Source of the DNA: Naegleria gruberi
Taxonomy: Eukaryota
Strand: one strand, 5' to 3'
DNA length: 64,000 nucleotides
NCBI GenBank assembly: GCA_000004985.1
Contig: GG738872.1
Under the pieces are notes generated by a model that did no database searches, was not told the origin of the DNA, and worked only from the letters and a program-made list of their open reading frames with translations. Position numbers and translations under genes: made by a program. The first letter of the stretch is position 1. Every line of letters starts with the position of its first letter. Below, piece after piece: positions 1,621-60,327 of this stretch.

Positions 1621-1681
1621 GCCGACATAGCTCAGTTGGGAGAGCGTAAGACTGAAGATCTTAAGGTCCCTGGTGTCGGCA
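1621..1681 (+). pseudogene. Truncated tRNA-Phe(GAA) copy missing 12 nt of the T-arm (T-stem and TTCGATCC loop).
   Basis: Identical to the intact tRNA-Phe at 60255-60327 over the acceptor, D and anticodon arms. It lacks ttcgatccctgg, so it jumps from ggtccctgg to tgtcggca. Both copies share the flanks agaa|gcc and ca|aattttg. Confidence 0.7.
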
Positions 1682-9016: not shown

Positions 9017-9136
9017 TGGCTACGGCCATATCACGATGCATGCACCTCATCCCGTCCGATTTGAGAAGTTAAGCATCGTCGAGCCACATCAGTACTGAGG
9101 TTGGAGACAACTTGGGAACCTGTGGTGCTGTAGTCT
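9017..9136 (+). rRNA. 5S ribosomal RNA gene, copy 1.
   Basis: GGCTACGGCCATA...CCCGTCCGAT...AGTACTGAGGTTGGAGACAACTTGGGAACCTGTGGTGCTGTAGTC matches the 5S consensus (helix I pairing, box-A/box-C regions) and is followed by a TTTTT Pol III terminator. About 120 nt. Confidence 0.85.
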
Positions 9137-11472: not shown

Positions 11473-11592
11473 GGCTACGGCCATATCATGATGAATGCAC
11501 CTCATCCCGTCCGATTTGAGAAGTTAAGCATCGTCGAGCCACATCAGTACTGAGGTTGGAGACAACTTGGGAACCTGTGGTGCTGTAGTCTT
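11473..11592 (+). rRNA. 5S ribosomal RNA gene, copy 2.
   Basis: Differs from copy 1 at only about 2 positions (atcaTgatgAatg versus atcaCgatgCatg). Followed by TTTTTATTTT. Same orientation as copy 1. Confidence 0.85.
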
Positions 11593-27011: not shown

Positions 27012-27084
27012 GCCCGTCTAGCTCAGTCGGTAGAGCGCAAGGCTCTTAACCTTGTGGTCGTGGGTTCGACCCCCACGGTGGGCG
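27012..27084 (+). tRNA. tRNA-Lys (anticodon CTT).
   Basis: 73-nt cloverleaf GCCCGTCTAGCTCAGTCGGTAGAGCGCAAGGCTCTTAACCTTGTGGTCGTGGGTTCGACCCCCACGGTGGGCG. Anticodon loop CTCTTAA. A T-run lies just downstream. Confidence 0.9.
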
Positions 27085-29216: not shown

Positions 29217-30695
29217 TTAATTTACTACAAGATTATCTGAATCAAACTTGCTTAGGGCGGAAATAAGGTTGACACATCTCTCACCACAACCATCCATTTG
29301 TTCACTTCCATTTCCGAAACGTATTGGTCTCTTTTTTCTCACAACTACCACATGAATTTCTCGAGCTTGTAAAGATGACGAAACTGTAAAGTCCAAATCA
29401 ATTCTTCTCCACTTGATATCCTGAAGATTTTTCAAAATGGTTTCCTCAAATTCCACTTCACAATTATTGTCTCTATAGAGTTTTTTGCACTTGTCGTTCA
29501 AGTCTCCCACAAATGGTTCATGTTCGGTACCTTTCCAGCTAGCTTTCAAAAGATGGTCAATTCTCTCTGTTGATACAGTCTCCTTCCCGTAAGGTGTAAA
29601 GAATTCATTCAACAAGTTAACATATGCATTTGAGGTGAGAAATTCACTGCTAGCTCCTCCAATTTTAACTGATGGTTCTGCATGTTCATTGAGTGGATAC
29701 GGATTAAATGAACGAATTGATGAAGATGGAAAAGGAACAGTTGAATCCAAATTACATGATGATATTAAGGTTCTTTGTGGAAACTTTTTCAAAACTTTTA
29801 CAAAATCTGATTCTGGCAAACTCATTCTGTACAATAATGATTCTTCAATGGAATTGCCATCATCCAATTTCAACTCTTTTCCTGTCAATCCAAGAAGTGA
29901 AATAAATGTATGCGCTGCAAATCTGTAAATTGATTTGAAATAGGTACCACCAGGTCTTCTCGATCCTAAATGTGGAGTTGATATTGTTGTAAAATTCTAA
30001 TACAGATTAAAATAATTATTGATATTAAAAATCCCACTTACACATGGAACCAAATGTGGAAATACATTATCTACAAAATATTTTCGATGTTCTTGGAATT
30101 CTTCATCTTTGGAAATTTCAATATCACCACTTGGTAAGTCATATACTAGTTTAACGAAATATCTGGCAATTAATCCTCCTAATGAATGCCCAATGACACT
30201 TAATTTCAATTTCTTACCATTCGAAAGTGAAACCTTTCTTTCATAAATAATTTTCAACACTTCTTTCAATACATTGGTTCCCAATGATTCAATACCATCA
30301 TGTGTTTTACCTTCATTACAAGCACAATCAATAATCTGAAATAATTTCAATTATCAAGTTAGTGACAAGTTACTTACAATGGCATGTTCTGGTGTTTCAT
30401 CGGAATTATACAACTCTTTTAATTTTTCTGCAATAAACTGAAAATCCTTCTGATTACCATGCAGTCCATGAATTAAAACATATAGATCATTATGTTTTGA
30501 TTGAGTATTTTTCTCACTTGTTTCCGTTGCTTTATATTCAATCGAAGGAGTCATCTCTTCCACCATTGTTGAATTGTTTTTTTCTATTGTATCAATTTGT
30601 TCCTCCACCATTGTCTCTTTTAAATTATCCATTGCAGATGATGATTGTGATGATTCTACTTGATCATCTGTTACAGAAGAAGGTTGTTGGGACAT
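29217..30695 (-). CDS. DUF676-type putative serine esterase/lipase (alpha/beta hydrolase). Three exons: 30695-30378, 30335-30042, 29996-29217.
   Basis: LYVLIHGLHGNQKDFQFIAEKL (DUF676 start). Nucleophile elbow VIGHSLGGLIARY. The downstream TPHLGS motif appears only after splicing exons 2 and 3. Introns are 42 and 45 nt, both GTAAGT...AG, both phase 0. Confidence 0.7.
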
Positions 30696-30853: not shown

Positions 30854-33800
30854 TTACATGTAGAATTGTTGAGCACTGAGAGAATCGATACCACCACTTG
30901 GAACTCTAATGTGAGTGGTTGGGGAGTTACCTGATCGGCAGTACATCTTGCTGAGATACTTATTTCTGACATAGGTTTGTAAGGCTGGTTGATTGATATT
31001 ACTGTTTGGTTTAGTGTTTGGAGGAAGGCTCAATTCGAAATGTTCATTGGCAGTCTTGTTGCCAATAGCGTACAGGAATGTGAGTTGTTCTTTAGAAAGT
31101 TTAGCACCACCAACTGTCAAGCTTTCGAGTCTACCAGTCTTTAAGGTAAAGTGAGCCAATCTACATTGAGTACACAAAACTGTACCATAACCTAAGTGAG
31201 CCCATTGGACTTGGGTTGAGGAACAATCAGCACAACAATTGTTACCATCTTTTTTGAGAACATCTTCATTATTTGAAATTGGAGTGGATGGAATGCTCAA
31301 ACTTCTGTAGGTAAAAGCTTCATCAGGTTCAACATATTCGAAATTAGGATTAATCAAAACAGGAGCAGTTGGAGAAGATGGTGGTTGAACATAAGACTTT
31401 TGGAGTCCAAAGAATGATGGTGGAGTGGATTGAAGAGTAGGGATTGACCTCACATTACCAGCTTGGAGCTTGAATTGACCAACTTGAGAAACAAATCTGG
31501 ACAAGTTTGTGTAAACTTGATTGTACTTCAAGCTAATCTTCTTAATGTCATCAGAGAATTTGTTGGCTTCACTACACTTTTGAAGGCTGTGGGTTGCTGA
31601 CAAATACAAATCATAGGCATCACAAGTTACAGGAATGATGGAGCCCATCTTTGCAGATGGAGTCTTTTCAATCAAGATTGACTTTTGCAATTGCATTAAA
31701 CCGTCCAAAAGATCAATCAATTCAGAAACATCTTGCGATTCAATATTTGCTTTAAGAGCAAAGTTACTGCTAACGCTATTCTTGAGATTTTGCAAAATGT
31801 CACATCTCTTTTCCAACCAGGTACCATATTCAACAACGAATTTGGCAATCAATTGATTCTTTGGTTTCCATACTTCTTTCAGATCTTGAACAAGGCTCTT
31901 AATTTCGATAGGATCAACCTTATCTGGTAATGATTGAGCAATATGATGAAGTAAGATCATGGCCTTAACAGCAATATTTGGATCAACAAAGATTGGTCTT
32001 TCTCTAATGTATACCAAGTATTCAATCAAGGTGTTTTCATCACCTCTATTGAAAATTTCGTTACAAATCATTGAAATTTGACTTGGTCTAGATTGTCTTG
32101 GAGCAATAGTGGTCGATCTCATTACTACCATTCTACGTCCTTCACTATTCAAAGAAGATTGAGGTAAAAGAGGAGAAGTTGTGGCTGGTCTTTGAGGAGT
32201 TTGAGTGGTTGGAGAAAGTGCCAAATCAGAGAAGTTTTCACTCAAGCTACGTTTGTGAATATTGGCATTTTGAAGTTGGAGAACTTTTTGTGGTTGAGGA
32301 GTCATCAAAGTAGGAGGCTTGGCTTGTGGTACAGGTGAGCTGGCTTCTTGCCAATCAAGTTGAGAGAATAAATCTCCACCTCCAGAAGGTTGTGGTGGTT
32401 TTTGAGAAACTGGTTGAGTTTGAATTGGTGTTAATAACTTTTGGACTTTTTGTGGTTGAACCTTTGGGGTAGATGGTTGTTGGACAGGCGGAGTGCTCGA
32501 TGGAGCCTCAAAATCAGAGAAATCAGCATCCCAATTGTCATCTCCAAATGAATTTTGGAAACTTTCAGGTTGTTGGAAAACTGGTTTCTTGACAACAGCA
32601 GGTGATTGTGGAGTAGTGGTCTTTCTTGCAATGAATTGAGATTTTGGTTGTTGTTGAATTTGTTGAGTAACAACAGGTTGAGTTGGTTGTTGGGAAGGAG
32701 CATGTCCATCATTACTGAACCAGTCGAGTTGGGAGAACAAATCACCACCACCAGCACCTCCAGATTGAGGTTTTGGAGTGGTTGGCTTTGTCAAAACTGG
32801 TGAGCTCTTTGATTGAGTGTTTTGAGTCAAAATTGGTCTTTGTGTTGGTCTTGGCATTGAAATTTCTTTTCCGAGCAATTTACCAACTTTTTCAGTGATA
32901 TCAAAAACAGATGGTCTATCCTTAACAGCTGGAACAAGCATACTCTTAATTAAATCAATAATTGGTTGTGAGTAAACAGGAGATGGTGGAATTTTGTACT
33001 TGGCATTAATGACAGAAATTGAACTTTCGGCATCTTCGAAAGGTCCCTTGAAGAAACACAACTTGAACAAGACACAACCCAAGGCCCAGACGTCAGCCTT
33101 TTCAGTGATTGGATCACCACTATAAAGATCAGCCATTTCTGGAGCTCTGTAGGCCAAAGTTGTATTCTTTTGAATGTCCTCTTCAGCTTCTTGTTTTTCA
33201 GCTCTTGATGAGAGTGTATAAATTCTTGTGGTTGTTGATCCAAAGTCGCAAATCTTGTAGGTTCCGTTTGTACACAAAATATTTTCAACTTTCTAACAAT
33301 TACTATTAGAAATTGCAACAGTAAAATATAATTACTTACCAAGTCTCTGTGAATCATTGGTGGATTTTGGGAGTGCATGTGAGCAACACCTTTACAAACA
33401 TCAAAGAAGATGTTCAAAATTTCTTGTTCCGAGAATTTGGATCTTTGGTTAAGTCTTTCTTCCATCATACCGACAACTTCGGAATCAGCAAGTTCCATAA
33501 GAATATAAATTTCGTTAGTTCTATTGTTTTGAATTTCCTTGACGCCAATGAGTTTGACAACATTTTCGTGATTGTTCAATTTCTTCATTACGTCAATTTC
33601 CTTCTTTGCTTGTACACTTTGTGAAGAATCTTGGATTAATAAACGCTTGAGAGCATAGTCAACTCCGGTTTGAATATTCTTCACTATAAAAACAAAGGAA
33701 AAACCACCTTCTCCCAATAATTTGGTAATTTTATAGGTTTCTCCGTTAATTTCAATTGTCTTTGGAACATCAACAGGCAAATTAGAAAAAACTCCACTAT

Positions 33801-33942
33801 CTTCAACTAAATCCTCTCCAAAATTTAATGCTGATGTTGGTAAATTGGAAACAGCGTGATGACGAACTTTTTCTACAGCATCTTCCATTCTATTCAGACC
33901 AGCATTAGCAAGCTGCTTGGTCTTGTTCAAAAATCCTTGCAT
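30854..33942 (-). CDS. NAK-family (AAK1/GAK/Ark-Prk-like) Ser/Thr kinase fused to a Q/P-rich linker, an ANTH/ENTH-like helical region and a C-terminal ArfGAP zinc finger. Two exons with intron 33293-33339. About 1013 aa.
   Basis: Exon 1 has LGEGGFSFVFIV...YALKRL...HRDL. A 47-nt GTAAGT intron in phase 0 continues as KVENILCTNGTYKICDFGSTT (HRDLKxEN and CDFGS are NAK hallmarks). The C-terminus NNCCADCSSTQVQWAHLGYGTVLCTQCRLAHFTL...GNKTANEHFE is an ArfGAP CxxC-x16-CxxC finger. GGGDLFSQLDW occurs twice in the linker. Confidence 0.75.
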
Positions 33943-34276: not shown

Positions 34277-35245
34277 ATGGGAAATCATGTTTCAATAGAT
34301 GAGAAACCACAAACAATAGAGGACTTGTTTAAGGACTATCCCTACAGGGAACAAAACTTCTTCTCTTCTAATATCAAAATTTGGAAGTTTGAGGAATCAT
34401 CATCTGATCAGTGTGTTGTGAGTCCTCTCAATTTTACTATGGAATTTTCATCTTTCAATCCTCATCATTGCTATGTTGTTTTACATACATTTAATAAGGG
34501 TGAAGAATTTCAGAATCAGGATAATCAAAGAAAGGCCATCAAATTAACAAGTCATTCACTTCTTCAGTTAGCAGCATCCACAGTTAATTTGACTCTCCCT
34601 GGATTGGAAAATAGGTTTTGTGTGAATGATTTGCAGAATTTCTTCTTTTCGAAATGTTCTAATATTGGATTTAGAGAAAAACTTACACTTCTTGGGGAGA
34701 GCTTGAACGGATTTTCATATTGTGTCTATGTGTGGCATGGTAAGAATGCTTCAACCTTCCTTCAATCTTCATCGACCACAGCAGGATTGGACCTGGATAG
34801 AAAGCTCTTACTCAATGAAAAGGTTGTGAGAAGGGCATTCAGTTGTGGAGAGCCGTCATCCATTTGTAATTACTATCACAATGATATACCTTCCTTTACT
34901 TCTGAGAGCATTCTAGAAATCAAGAAAACAAGCTCAAGCTCGTTAGCCATTTGTATGACACTGTTTCAGTATTGCCATTTATTTAGACAGTTGATTCATA
35001 ATCCAGAGACTATTTCACAATTGCCAGATAATGTTGGAAGTAAGGATGTTGCATTCAGAGCTCTTCTCCAACTTCCACCAACTGTAGAAATCACTTCTAG
35101 TTTTCAACCAGCTGAGCAAGAGAACCAGATTCACGATAATGACATTCCAGAATATATGGCATCTCCAGCAGCTTCTCCTATTGGTTCAGAGGAGAGTGAT
35201 TCCTACCATACATCGGATGAAAGTACAGAATATTTTGATGAATAA
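34277..35245 (+). CDS. Hypothetical protein with a predicted N-myristoylation site (MGNHVS), 322 aa.
   Basis: ATG-Gly start with Ser at position 6. Acidic C-terminus. No recognisable domain. Confidence 0.4.
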   Translation: MGNHVSIDEKPQTIEDLFKDYPYREQNFFSSNIKIWKFEESSSDQCVVSPLNFTMEFSSFNPHHCYVVLHTFNKGEEFQNQDNQRKAIKLTSHSLLQLAASTVNLTLPGLENRFCVNDLQNFFFSKCSNIGFREKLTLLGESLNGFSYCVYVWHGKNASTFLQSSSTTAGLDLDRKLLLNEKVVRRAFSCGEPSSICNYYHNDIPSFTSESILEIKKTSSSSLAICMTLFQYCHLFRQLIHNPETISQLPDNVGSKDVAFRALLQLPPTVEITSSFQPAEQENQIHDNDIPEYMASPAASPIGSEESDSYHTSDESTEYFDE

Positions 35246-37223: not shown

Positions 37224-37297
37224 TACCGACAATGGGGCTCGAACCCACGACCCCAGGATTAGAAGTCCTGTGCTCTATCCAACTGAGCTATGACGGC
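37224..37297 (-). tRNA. tRNA-Arg (anticodon TCT).
   Basis: Minus-strand sequence GCCGTCATAGCTCAGTTGGATAGAGCACAGGACTTCTAATCCTGGGGTCGTGGGTTCGAGCCCCATTGTCGGTA with anticodon loop CTTCTAA. There is one T-T mismatch in the acceptor stem. A T-run lies downstream on the minus strand. Confidence 0.8.
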
Positions 37298-60254: not shown

Positions 60255-60327
60255 GCCGACATAGCTCAGTTGGGAGAGCGTAAGACTGAAGATCTTAAGG
60301 TCCCTGGTTCGATCCCTGGTGTCGGCA
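60255..60327 (+). tRNA. tRNA-Phe (anticodon GAA), intact.
   Basis: 73-nt cloverleaf GCCGACATAGCTCAGTTGGGAGAGCGTAAGACTGAAGATCTTAAGGTCCCTGGTTCGATCCCTGGTGTCGGCA. Anticodon loop ACTGAAGAT. A TTTT tract lies downstream. Confidence 0.9.

What the first reader, a model, noticed from the sequence alone, without database searches (positions are those of the whole stretch)
30854..33942. NAK-family kinase fused to an ArfGAP zinc finger with duplicated GGGDLFSQLDW motifs
NAK kinases (AAK1, GAK, yeast Ark1/Prk1) regulate clathrin-adaptor function. ArfGAPs of the SMAP/AGFG type also act in clathrin-dependent traffic but are normally separate proteins. Here one polypeptide carries the NAK kinase domain (HRDLKVEN, CDFGS) at the N-terminus and a C4 ArfGAP finger at the C-terminus. 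Between them sit a Q/P-rich linker, an ANTH/ENTH-like helical region, and two copies of GGGDLFSQLDW(F/Q) that look like adaptor-appendage or clathrin-binding peptides. I do not recognise this fusion architecture from characterised model-organism proteins.
Basis: partly seen in the sequence, partly recalled or inferred. Interest (0 to 1): 0.55.

Follow-up and report, generated by a model that had tools for sequence, protein, structure and literature searches.

The report
Clathrin-traffic kinase fused to dead ArfGAP
This is a real single gene of a Naegleria-like amoeba that joins an AAK1/GAK-type kinase, a membrane-adaptor (ANTH) domain and an ArfGAP zinc-finger domain; the same uncharacterised fusion occurs in many amoebae, but here the ArfGAP has lost its catalytic arginine.

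Summary
A two-exon gene on the minus strand (33942..33340, 47-nt intron, 33292..30854) encodes 1013 aa. It has a NAK-family kinase domain (Pfam 164 bits; best solved relatives AAK1/GAK/BIKE, E about 1e-64), a disordered linker, an ANTH domain (Pfam above threshold; predicted fold matches HIP1R/Sla2) and a C-terminal ArfGap domain (70 bits). The linker carries two identical GGGDLFSQLDW peptides.

The fusion is not peculiar to this genome. The same architecture occurs in N. fowleri (65% identity, same intron position), Willaertia, the jakobid Andalucia and transcript assemblies of at least five amoebozoans. I found no paper describing it.

- In the Naegleria/Willaertia clade the ArfGAP arginine finger is Phe (CTQCRLAHF versus C-x2-C-x4-R) and the ANTH PI(4,5)P2 signature is degenerate. 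Both domains still stay 71-75% identical between species, against 38% for the linker.
- [LF]Fxx[LV]DW is a conserved short motif of this family, also found in 13 of 17 metazoan GAK-type hits.

Most likely it is a clathrin-coat-associated kinase scaffold whose ArfGAP-like domain no longer stimulates GTP hydrolysis. I class it as a new variant of known kinds, of moderate interest.

The parts
33340..33942 (-). Exon 1: start codon, N-terminal helix (aa 4-35) and kinase N-lobe up to HRDL (aa 1-201)
   Evidence: ORF and sequence reading. The spliced translation is continuous with N. fowleri and Willaertia orthologues.
33293..33339 (-). 47-nt intron (GTAAGT...TTAG) between HRDL and KVEN, phase 0
   Evidence: The N. 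fowleri orthologue has its single 155-nt intron at the same position.
30854..33292 (-). Exon 2: rest of the kinase, disordered linker, ANTH, ArfGAP-like domain and TAA stop (aa 202-1013)
   Evidence: Single uninterrupted 812-codon frame.
32891..33735 (-). NAK-family protein kinase domain, aa 70-335 (spans the intron). Catalytic motifs are intact: GEGGFSFV, K99, HRD198-200, DFG217-219, APE251-253.
   Evidence: Pfam Pkinase 164 bits. PDB best hits are AAK1 4e-64, GAK 1.9e-63 and BIKE 3.8e-62, against STK16 1.5e-35. Motif coordinates.
32720..32752 (-). Motif copy 1, GGGDLFSQLDW (aa 382-392), in the disordered linker
   Evidence: The linker has pLDDT of about 30 in the full-length model of the N. 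fowleri orthologue.
32507..32533 (-). WDADFSDFE (aa 455-463): acidic Trp/Phe motif (W-x3-F, DFxDF-like) between the two LFSQLDW copies
   Evidence: Conserved as W[AE]xDFSDF in N. fowleri, Willaertia, P0003 and P0124, and as WxxF-like in Andalucia, P0008, P0055 and P0065.
32351..32383 (-). Motif copy 2, GGGDLFSQLDW (aa 505-515)
31406..32140 (-). ANTH domain (aa 586-830), HIP1R/Sla2-like helical solenoid
   Evidence: Pfam ANTH 27.9 bits, above the 21.5 cut-off. AlphaFold2 pLDDT is 80-97. Foldseek: HIP1R ANTH 7ost, E 6.8e-6, TM 0.70; Sla2 ANTH 5oo7_A, TM 0.75.
32087..32119 (-). Degenerate PI(4,5)P2-binding signature, RSTTIAPRQSR (aa 593-603), in place of KATSxxxxAPKxK[HY]
   Evidence: Alignment A2 and regex scan. 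The canonical signature is kept in Andalucia, Filamoeba, P0008, P0023, P0123 and P0124.
30935..31267 (-). ArfGAP-like domain (aa 877-987) with C4 zinc finger C888/C891/C908/C911 (31163-31234)
   Evidence: Pfam ArfGap 70.3 bits. PDB sequence hits: SMAP2 6.8e-11, PAP-beta 2.5e-10, SMAP1 1.5e-9. Fold matches ADAP1, SMAP1 and SMAP2.
31148..31150 (-). Phe916 at the position of the catalytic arginine finger (C-x2-C-x4-R)
   Evidence: HMMER alignments to SMAP2, PAP-beta, SMAP1 and ASAP put query CRLAHF against C[AS]GIHR. Orthologue alignments agree.
31160..31162 (-). Arg912, directly after the last zinc-ligand Cys. It is conserved only in the Arg-finger-less clade and lies one helical turn before F916.
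   Evidence: Alignments. Predicted helix aa 909-918. Any functional meaning is speculative.

Best explanation
Shown:
- The locus is one two-exon gene of a Naegleria-like heterolobosean.
- Its 1013-aa product consists of an N-terminal helix, a catalytically intact NAK-family (AAK1/GAK-like) Ser/Thr kinase domain, a disordered linker of about 245 aa, a HIP1R/Sla2-type ANTH domain and a C-terminal SMAP-like ArfGAP-fold zinc-finger domain.
- The linker's only conserved elements are two DLFSQLDW peptides flanking a WDADFSDFE peptide.
- The architecture is an old, conserved one found in Heterolobosea, Jakobida and many Amoebozoa.
- In the Naegleria/Willaertia clade the ArfGAP arginine finger is Phe. 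The following conserved stretch (canonical V[RK]S, then LDxW) and the ANTH PI(4,5)P2 signature are also changed.
- Both domains nevertheless remain strongly conserved within the clade.

Inferred:
- The protein is a clathrin-coat-associated regulatory scaffold.
- The linear motifs in the flexible linker recruit it in trans to coat hubs (AP-1/AP-2 appendages and/or clathrin).
- The kinase phosphorylates coat components, such as adaptor mu subunits, as AAK1 and GAK do.
- The ANTH plus ArfGAP-like module positions it on membranes or on Arf-GTP or other coat partners.
- In canonical orthologues the module would also switch Arf off, coupling adaptor phosphorylation to Arf-GTP hydrolysis.
- In this lineage the domain is most likely a non-catalytic binding module (a pseudo-GAP).
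For: Gene model:
-. Intron position and microsynteny with N. fowleri.

Domains:
- Pfam.
- Kinase nearest to AAK1/GAK/BIKE, with all catalytic motifs present.
- ANTH fold: AlphaFold2 pLDDT 80-97, with Foldseek matches to HIP1R and Sla2 ANTH.
- ArfGAP fold and zinc finger.

Loss of catalytic and lipid-binding features:
- Arg-finger replacement: F916 aligns to the catalytic Arg of SMAP2, SMAP1, PAP-beta and ASAP.
- All 12 orthologues outside the clade keep C[AS]GxHR, while P0001, P0002, P0003 and P0121 share CRLAHF and P0122 has Lys.
- Mutation of the ArfGAP arginine finger abolishes GAP activity (PMC6724607).

Selection on the changed domains:
- Identity to N. fowleri is kinase 86%, linker 38%, ANTH 71% and ArfGAP 75%.
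- The ArfGAP domain sits on a long branch before the clade and short branches within it.

Linear motifs:
- Motif copies are identical in peptide but differ at 6 synonymous sites.
- The motif is conserved across the family, 40 hits against 1.3 expected.
- It lies in a region with pLDDT about 30, with no predicted intramolecular docking.
- A related motif occurs in 13 of 17 GAK-type metazoan hits, and in none of the nine AAK1/BIKE-type and fungal NAK hits checked.

Functional logic from known families:
- SMAP2 binds clathrin and the ANTH protein CALM at AP-1-positive TGN/endosomes (PMC3756916, PMC6724607).
- AAK1 and GAK phosphorylate AP mu subunits (as summarised in PMC5399782).
- An AAK-like kinase and SMAP both co-purify with clathrin in the discoban T. 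brucei (PMC5399782).
Against: - No expression, localisation, binding or enzymatic data exist for this protein or any orthologue, so every functional step is inferred from domain homology.
- The linker has no canonical clathrin box, DPF/DPW, NPF or FxDxF motif.
- The partner of LFxxLDW is unknown.
- An Arg conserved at +1 after the last Cys (R912) might substitute for the lost finger.
- The ANTH signature keeps three Arg residues, so some lipid binding may persist.
- Deep phylogeny of the ArfGAP domain is unresolved, so the SMAP affinity rests on best-hit similarity only.
Confidence: 0.6

Rival explanations
1. The ArfGAP domain is still an active GAP. The arginine finger has been relocated to R912, one helical turn upstream on the same face of the helix, or is supplied in trans by a partner. 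The protein would then couple Arf-GTP hydrolysis to adaptor phosphorylation, as its canonical orthologues presumably do.
For: - R912 is conserved in every Arg-finger-less sequence (CRLAHF in the window, P0001, P0002, P0003 and P0121), while canonical domains have Ala or Ser there.
- R912 and F916 lie in one predicted helix, aa 909-918.
- The domain is under strong purifying selection.
- P0122 has Lys at the finger position, which suggests gradual change.
Against: - Further conserved ArfGAP positions are also changed: V[RK]S to ESL, LDxW to GAKL, and Gly at +2 to Leu.
- The domain sits on a long branch.
- No precedent for a relocated finger in ArfGAPs was found.
Confidence: 0.15
2. The protein works like yeast Ark1/Prk1 together with Sla2/HIP1R. 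It would be an endocytic uncoating and actin-coupling kinase that phosphorylates coat scaffold proteins rather than adaptor mu subunits. The HIP1R/Sla2-type ANTH domain would tie it to endocytic sites, and the ArfGAP-like domain would be a secondary interaction module.
For: - The ANTH fold is closest to HIP1R and Sla2, not CALM/AP180 (the weak sequence hit is also Sla2).
- Fungal Ark/Prk/Akl kinases are among the strong kinase-domain hits.
Against: - The kinase domain is equally close to AAK1 and GAK.
- The LFxxLDW motif is shared with GAK-type proteins but not with fungal Ark/Prk.
- There is no talin-like/THATCH actin-binding module or proline-rich SH3 ligand pattern typical of Ark/Prk.
Confidence: 0.2
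3. The fusion is an artefact of reading the genome. Two independent products (a kinase and an ANTH-ArfGAP protein) would be made from the locus by an internal promoter, or the ORF continuity would have no functional meaning.
For: - There is no transcript evidence for this species.
- One metagenomic fragment (P0123) contains only ANTH plus ArfGAP, but it is N-terminally truncated.
Against: - An 812-codon frame crosses all domain boundaries.
- The identical arrangement occurs in three heterolobosean genomes and in Andalucia.
- Single complete ORFs from de novo transcript assemblies of four amoebozoans span kinase to ArfGap, and a fifth (Protostelium) is truncated inside the ArfGap domain.
- The N. 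fowleri annotation has one gene.
Confidence: 0.04

Closest known systems
NAK-family kinases AAK1, BIKE/BMP2K and GAK (animals); Ark1/Prk1/Akl1 (yeast); TbAAKL (trypanosomes)
   Same: - The kinase domain is the closest solved relative (E about 1e-64) and all catalytic motifs are present.
- It is followed by a long disordered tail carrying short aromatic/acidic motifs, as in AAK1 and GAK.
- The ΦFxxΦ[DE]W motif is shared with GAK-type proteins.
   Different: - None of the characterised NAKs carries an ANTH or an ArfGAP domain.
- GAK instead has PTEN-C2 and a J domain. AAK1 has only a disordered tail.
- There are no canonical clathrin box, DPF or NPF motifs here.
SMAP1/SMAP2 (small ArfGAPs of clathrin-dependent traffic)
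   Same: - They are the closest ArfGAP domains by sequence (canonical orthologue 45-59% identical) and among the best fold matches.
- SMAP2 binds clathrin and the ANTH protein CALM (PMC3756916, PMC6724607). The ANTH plus SMAP-like ArfGAP pairing here mirrors a known interaction, in the manner of a 'Rosetta stone' fusion.
   Different: - The ArfGAP domain is C-terminal here, not N-terminal.
- There is no LLGLD clathrin box.
- The catalytic Arg is replaced by Phe in this lineage.
- It is fused to a kinase and an ANTH domain.
- Subfamily membership is not resolved by the tree.
HIP1R/Sla2 and CALM/AP180 ANTH-domain adaptors
   Same: - The fold is an ANTH helical solenoid (TM 0.70-0.75 to HIP1R and Sla2).
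- Orthologues outside the Naegleria clade keep the KATSx(4-5)PKxK[HY] PI(4,5)P2 signature.
   Different: - The ANTH domain is internal here, not N-terminal.
- The lipid-binding signature is degenerate (RSTTIAPRQSR).
- There is no coiled coil or THATCH domain (HIP1R/Sla2) and no long clathrin-assembly tail (CALM/AP180).
Uncharacterised NAK-ANTH(-ArfGAP) proteins of other protists
   Same: - These are orthologous proteins with the same domain order and the same linear motif.
- Examples with ArfGap: N. fowleri FDP41_002427, Willaertia ABK040_015657, Andalucia ANDGO_05749, and Vermamoeba, Filamoeba, Phalansterium and Echinamoeba transcripts.
- Dictyostelid and Anaeramoeba NAK-ANTH proteins lack the ArfGAP domain.
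   Different: - Proteins outside the Naegleria/Willaertia clade keep the Arg finger and the PI(4,5)P2 signature.
- Some lineages lack the ArfGAP domain (dictyostelids, Anaeramoeba).
- P0023 and P0028 replace it with a second kinase domain.

Membership tests
NAK family of protein kinases | Kinase domain most similar to AAK1/BIKE/GAK rather than to other kinase families | tested here: met
   phmmer against PDB: AAK1 4e-64, GAK 1.9e-63, BIKE 3.8e-62; next come STK16 (also NAK) at 1.5e-35 and NEK1 at 2.7e-26.
NAK family of protein kinases | Intact catalytic residues (Gly loop, VAIK Lys, HRD, DFG, APE) | tested here: met
   GEGGFSFV, K99, HRD198-200, DFG217-219 and APE251-253 are present. The same columns are near-invariant in the family alignment.
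NAK family of protein kinases | Phosphorylation of adaptor mu subunits or other coat proteins | not testable with these tools
   Needs a kinase assay.
ArfGAP domain family (PF01412) | C-x2-C-x16-C-x2-C zinc finger and profile match above the curated threshold | tested here: met
   C888/C891/C908/C911; Pfam 70.3 bits against 28.7.
ArfGAP domain family (PF01412) | ArfGAP fold | tested here: met
   AlphaFold2 model segment matches ADAP1, SMAP1, SMAP2, PAP-beta and ASAP3, with target TM 0.63-0.77 for the isolated domains. pLDDT is 60-85 in the window model and about 90 in the N. fowleri model.
ArfGAP domain family (PF01412) | Catalytic arginine finger five residues after the last Cys (C-x2-C-x4-R) | tested here: not met
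   F916 aligns with the Arg of SMAP2, SMAP1, PAP-beta and ASAP. Orthologues outside the clade all have Arg. It therefore belongs to the fold family but is not predicted to be an active GAP.
SMAP subfamily of ArfGAPs | ArfGAP domain groups with SMAP1/2 | tested here: inconclusive
   SMAP2 is the best and SMAP1 the third PDB sequence hit. The canonical orthologue P0123 hits SMAP1/2 at 45-59% identity. A neighbour-joining tree of 116 columns does not resolve deep nodes.
SMAP subfamily of ArfGAPs | N-terminal ArfGAP domain followed by a clathrin box and a CALM-binding region | tested here: not met
   The ArfGAP domain is C-terminal, and no L[FILMV]x[FILMV][DE] motif occurs in the disordered regions.
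ANTH domain family (PF07651) | Profile match above threshold and ANTH helical-solenoid fold | tested here: met
   Pfam 27.9 bits against 21.5, covering profile positions 54-268. Foldseek: HIP1R ANTH E 6.8e-6, TM 0.70; Sla2 ANTH TM 0.75.
ANTH domain family (PF07651) | N-terminal PI(4,5)P2-binding signature K-A-T-x(4-9)-P-K-x-K-[HY] | tested here: not met
   The window has RSTTIAPRQSR. The signature is present in Andalucia, Filamoeba, P0008, P0023, P0123 and P0124.
Clathrin/adaptor accessory proteins carrying linear motifs | Known clathrin-box, DPF/DPW, NPF, FxDxF or strict WxxF motifs in disordered regions | tested here: not met
   The regex scan found none. Only DLFSQLDW (twice) and WDADFSDFE (DFxDF-like, W-x3-F) are present. 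Their binding partners are not testable here.

The most novel reading that the evidence does not exclude
NAK-ANTH-ArfGAP is an ancient, still undescribed coat regulator. In effect it would be a twelfth ArfGAP architecture, and the protist counterpart of GAK. It would have been present before Discoba and Amoebozoa diverged and lost in animals, fungi and plants. It physically unites three activities that model organisms keep on separate proteins: mu-adaptin kinase, ANTH adaptor and SMAP-type ArfGAP. Its conserved ΦFxxΦDW peptide, shared with GAK, would mark a docking site on the clathrin/adaptor machinery that has not yet been recognised. In the Naegleria clade the GAP module has been converted into a non-catalytic Arf-GTP or coat sensor.
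Probability: 0.3. Interest if true: 0.65.

Novelty: new variant of a known kind. Interest (0 to 1): 0.45.

Why it matters
- In animals and yeast, adaptor phosphorylation (AAK1/GAK), ANTH adaptors (CALM, HIP1R) and clathrin-linked ArfGAPs (SMAP1/2) are studied as separate proteins that meet at the coat. A conserved single polypeptide carrying all three is independent evolutionary evidence that these activities act together.
- It offers a simple system for testing how Arf inactivation and adaptor phosphorylation are coordinated.
- Loss of the arginine finger under continued purifying selection is a clean natural example of a GAP turning into a pseudo-GAP.
- The ΦFxxΦDW peptide, shared with GAK, is a candidate new coat-binding motif that could be tested directly.
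- Naegleria includes the lethal pathogen N. fowleri, which has the same protein with no human equivalent in architecture. Nothing here shows that the protein is essential.

Tried and rejected
1. The search for homologous proteins with the C-terminal half given as a DNA reference returned no hit at all, although the translation was correct. I treated this as a tool limitation and used the exhaustive representative search instead.
It found no record for the 807-aa exon-2 ORF. The window's own species is apparently not in the protein collection (best hit 65%; one 191-aa fragment at 86%).
I modelled aa 585-1013 of the window and the full-length N. fowleri orthologue instead.
4. A neighbour-joining tree of ArfGAP domains timed out on the first attempt and had a distance-cap bug on the second. 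The corrected run does not resolve deep nodes, so SMAP membership and a single origin of the fusion are not proven.
5. Searching with canonical orthologue P0123 retrieved mostly SMAP proteins and not further fused proteins. The taxonomic range beyond Amoebozoa and Discoba (plus Anaeramoeba without ArfGAP) is therefore unknown.
6. Literature searches for the fusion, for a Naegleria kinome with NAK, and for the LDWQ motif in GAK found nothing relevant. The key ArfGAP evolution paper (Schlacht et al. 2013) is not held, so I cannot exclude that it mentions such proteins.
7. Intramolecular docking of the motifs is not supported. Both lie in a region of pLDDT about 30 in the full-length model.
8. 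Recent tandem DNA duplication as the origin of the two motif copies is rejected. They differ at six synonymous sites, and both copies are present in Willaertia, Acrasis and Andalucia.
Full report
**1. What is in the sequence**

The window is AT-rich (about 33-37% G+C) eukaryotic DNA with short introns. On the minus strand an ATG at 33942 opens a frame that reads through the kinase N-lobe to ...MIHRDL. The frame then runs into GTAAGT.

Removing 47 nt (33339..33293, GTAAGT...TTAG) joins it in frame to KVENILCTNGTYKICDFGS... The reading frame then stays open for 812 codons to a TAA at 30856-30854. The product is 1013 aa.

The junction is confirmed by homology. N. fowleri and Willaertia proteins read HRDLKVENIL without interruption. 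The N. fowleri gene has its single intron (155 nt) at exactly this position. The divergently transcribed upstream neighbour (34277..35245) is also conserved next to the N. fowleri gene, at 42% identity.

A separate gene starts 158 bp downstream of the stop, at 30695 on the same strand.

**2. Domains**

| Domain | Residues | Pfam score (cut-off), | Other evidence |
|---|---|---|---|
| Pkinase | 70-335 | 164 bits | Best solved relatives AAK1, GAK, BIKE (E 4e-64 to 4e-62), far ahead of non-NAK kinases |
| ANTH | 641-830 | 27.9 bits (21.5) | See fold results below |
| ArfGap | 877-987 | 70.3 bits (28.7) | See fold results below |

- All kinase catalytic motifs are present.
- An AlphaFold2 model of aa 585-1013 gives a nine-helix solenoid with pLDDT 80-97. 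This is followed by a disordered spacer and a zinc-finger alpha/beta domain.
- Foldseek against the PDB matches the first domain to the ANTH domains of HIP1R (E 6.8e-6, TM 0.70) and Sla2 (TM 0.75).
- The second domain matches the ArfGAP domains of ADAP1, SMAP1, SMAP2, PAP-beta and ASAP3.
- A full-length model of the N. fowleri orthologue shows three well-folded domains (pLDDT above 90). They are separated by a linker of about 200 residues with pLDDT about 30, and there is no confident inter-domain packing (pTM 0.43).

**3. The repeated peptide**

GGGDLFSQLDW occurs at aa 382-392 and 505-515. The coding DNA differs at six synonymous positions and at no non-synonymous one.

Both copies are present in N. 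fowleri, Willaertia, a metagenomic relative and Acrasis. They are present in looser form in the jakobid Andalucia. A single copy sits 20-50 residues after the kinase domain in amoebozoan orthologues.

The relaxed pattern occurs 40 times in 32 of the 120 best NAK homologues, against 1.3 +/- 1.0 after shuffling. The consensus is [GS][DN]-L-F-[SD]-[QM]-L-D-W-[QE]-[DE].

Unexpectedly, 13 of 17 metazoan GAK-type hits (kinase plus PTEN-C2 plus J domain) carry one FFxx[LI]xW[QE][DE] at about aa 780-806. None of the nine AAK1/BIKE-type and fungal Ark/Prk-type hits I checked has it.

Between the two copies lies WDADFSDFE, likewise conserved. The linker has no canonical clathrin box, DPF/DPW, NPF or FxDxF. 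Both motifs fall in the low-confidence linker of the full-length model. They behave as short linear motifs for partners in trans. From general knowledge of endocytic motifs, DLF/DLL, DxW, WxxF and DFxDF-type peptides bind clathrin or adaptor ears. That is a lead, not a test.

**4. Distribution of the architecture**

The best homologues have the same kinase-ANTH-ArfGap order:
- N. fowleri FDP41_002427: 65% identity, 100% coverage.
- Willaertia magna: 55% identity.
- A JGI metagenome fragment: 62% identity.

Kinase plus ArfGap, in most cases with an ANTH call as well:
- Andalucia godoyi.
- Transcript assemblies of Vermamoeba, Filamoeba, Phalansterium and Echinamoeba (single complete ORFs).
- A Protostelium transcript contig, which is truncated inside the ArfGap domain.
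- Several unassigned environmental contigs.

Kinase plus ANTH without ArfGap:
- Dictyostelids, Clastostelium, Soliformovum and Anaeramoeba.
- Two sequences (P0023, P0028) end in a second kinase domain instead.

The fusion is therefore transcribed as one unit in other species and spans at least Discoba and Amoebozoa.

I found no paper describing it. It is not among the ArfGAP subfamilies listed in a 2019 review, which gives SMAP, AGFG, ArfGAP1, ArfGAP2, ACAP and ArfGAP_C2 as ancestral (PMC6724607). The primary ArfGAP evolution paper could not be read.

**5.

HMMER alignments to SMAP2, SMAP1, PAP-beta and ASAP place the query's C-T-Q-C-R-L-A-H-F against C-x-x-C-[AS]-G-I-H-R. Phe916 therefore occupies the position of the arginine finger. 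The review cited above states that mutation of this arginine abolishes GAP activity (PMC6724607).

- The same CRLAHF is found in N. fowleri, Willaertia, P0003 and the 86%-identical fragment P0121.
- A more distant relative (P0122) has Lys.
- All twelve orthologues outside this clade keep C[AS]GxHR and the following V[RK]S...LDxW.
- The ANTH PI(4,5)P2 signature W[VI]IKATSxxxxAPKxK[HY] is kept in Andalucia, Filamoeba, P0008, P0023, P0123 and P0124. In the window it reads VVMRSTTIAPRQSR.

These domains are nevertheless not decaying.
- Identity to N. fowleri is 75% in the ArfGAP-like domain and 71% in ANTH, against 38% in the linker and 86% in the kinase.
- In a distance analysis the clade sits on a long branch (at least 1.3 substitutions per site to any other ArfGAP). 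That compares with 0.7-0.9 between canonical fused domains and SMAPs. Within the clade the distances are only 0.29-0.35.

This is the pattern expected for a change of function followed by renewed constraint.

One alternative is that Arg912 acts as a relocated finger. It is conserved only in this clade and lies one helical turn before F916 in the predicted helix 909-918. I could not test this because model coordinates are not exposed.

**6. Most likely mechanism**

*Shown:*
- One polypeptide carries an intact NAK kinase and a flexible linker with three conserved peptides.
- It also carries a HIP1R/Sla2-like ANTH domain and a SMAP-like ArfGAP fold without the catalytic Arg.

*Inferred from the biology of the component families:*
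- AAK1 and GAK phosphorylate AP mu subunits.
- SMAP2 binds clathrin and the ANTH protein CALM at AP-1-positive membranes (PMC3756916, PMC6724607).
- AAK-like kinase and SMAP co-purify with clathrin in T. brucei (PMC5399782).

From these I infer that the protein is recruited to clathrin/adaptor coats through its linear motifs. It would phosphorylate coat components, and it would use the ANTH and ArfGAP-like domains for positioning on membrane, Arf-GTP or coat partners.

In canonical orthologues the same protein would also terminate Arf signalling. In the Naegleria clade that step is probably lost and the domain acts as a binding module.

Rivals are listed with their tests: an active GAP with a relocated finger, an Ark1/Prk1-plus-Sla2-like actin-coupled uncoating kinase, and separate transcripts.

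**7. Verdict**

The gene is an orthologue of uncharacterised proteins already sitting in databases as 'hypothetical protein' or 'AP2-associated kinase'. The sequence family is therefore not new.

The architecture, however, is undescribed in the literature I could search. It is conserved across two eukaryotic supergroups, carries a conserved motif shared with GAK, and shows a clean pseudo-GAP transition in this lineage.

I rate it a new variant of known kinds. Interest is moderate (0.45): attractive for evolutionary cell biology of membrane traffic, but built entirely from familiar parts and without any functional data.

Noticed in passing
window 9018-9136 and 11473-11591 (+): Two full-length 5S rRNA genes (Rfam 103 bits each), about 2.4 kb apart in the same orientation among protein-coding genes.
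   Followed up: no
window 27012-27084 (+), 37224-37297 (-), 60255-60327 (+), 1621-1681 (+): Dispersed tRNA genes Lys(CTT), Arg(TCT) and Phe(GAA). There is also a short 61-nt Rfam tRNA match at 1621-1681 (48 bits) that ARAGORN did not call.
   Followed up: no
window 29997-30695 (-): The gene immediately downstream on the same strand starts at 30695 (MSQQPSS...). It continues in a second ORF containing a GHSLGG serine-hydrolase/lipase-type motif, apparently split by a short intron or frame change near 30350. It was not searched against any library.
   Followed up: no
window 34277-35245 (+); L001 3855-4772: The divergently transcribed upstream neighbour (322 aa, no domain searched) is conserved in the same relative position in N. 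fowleri at 42% identity. Local gene order is therefore preserved on that side, while the downstream neighbour differs (an MFS transporter in N. fowleri).
   Followed up: partly
window 33838-33933 (-), aa 4-35: A predicted N-terminal helix lies before the kinase domain (helix 6-38, pLDDT about 75, in the N. fowleri model). Amoebozoan orthologues have Lys-rich N-termini beginning M-x-G-[FW] that may correspond to it, but I did not model or align them for this feature. It could be an amphipathic membrane-binding or regulatory helix. There is no Gly at position 2, so it is not a myristoylation site.
   Followed up: partly
homologues P0066-P0112 (metazoan GAK-type proteins), aa ~780-806: 13 of 17 GAK-type hits carry one FFxx[LI]xW[QE][DE] peptide about 780-806 residues in. 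It resembles the LFSQLDW motif of the protist NAK-ANTH-ArfGAP family. AAK1/BIKE-type and fungal NAKs lack it. I found no literature on it.
   Followed up: partly
homologues P0023 (1280 aa) and P0028 (1673 aa): These are NAK kinase plus canonical ANTH proteins whose C-terminus is a second, TKL-like kinase domain (HRDLKSLNL...) instead of an ArfGAP domain. The C-terminal module of this family has therefore been exchanged in some lineages.
   Followed up: no
protein collection versus the window: No protein more than 65% identical over full length is in the 5.8-billion-protein collection; the only closer match is a 191-aa fragment at 86%. The window comes from a Naegleria-like species whose proteome is not represented there.
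   Followed up: partly
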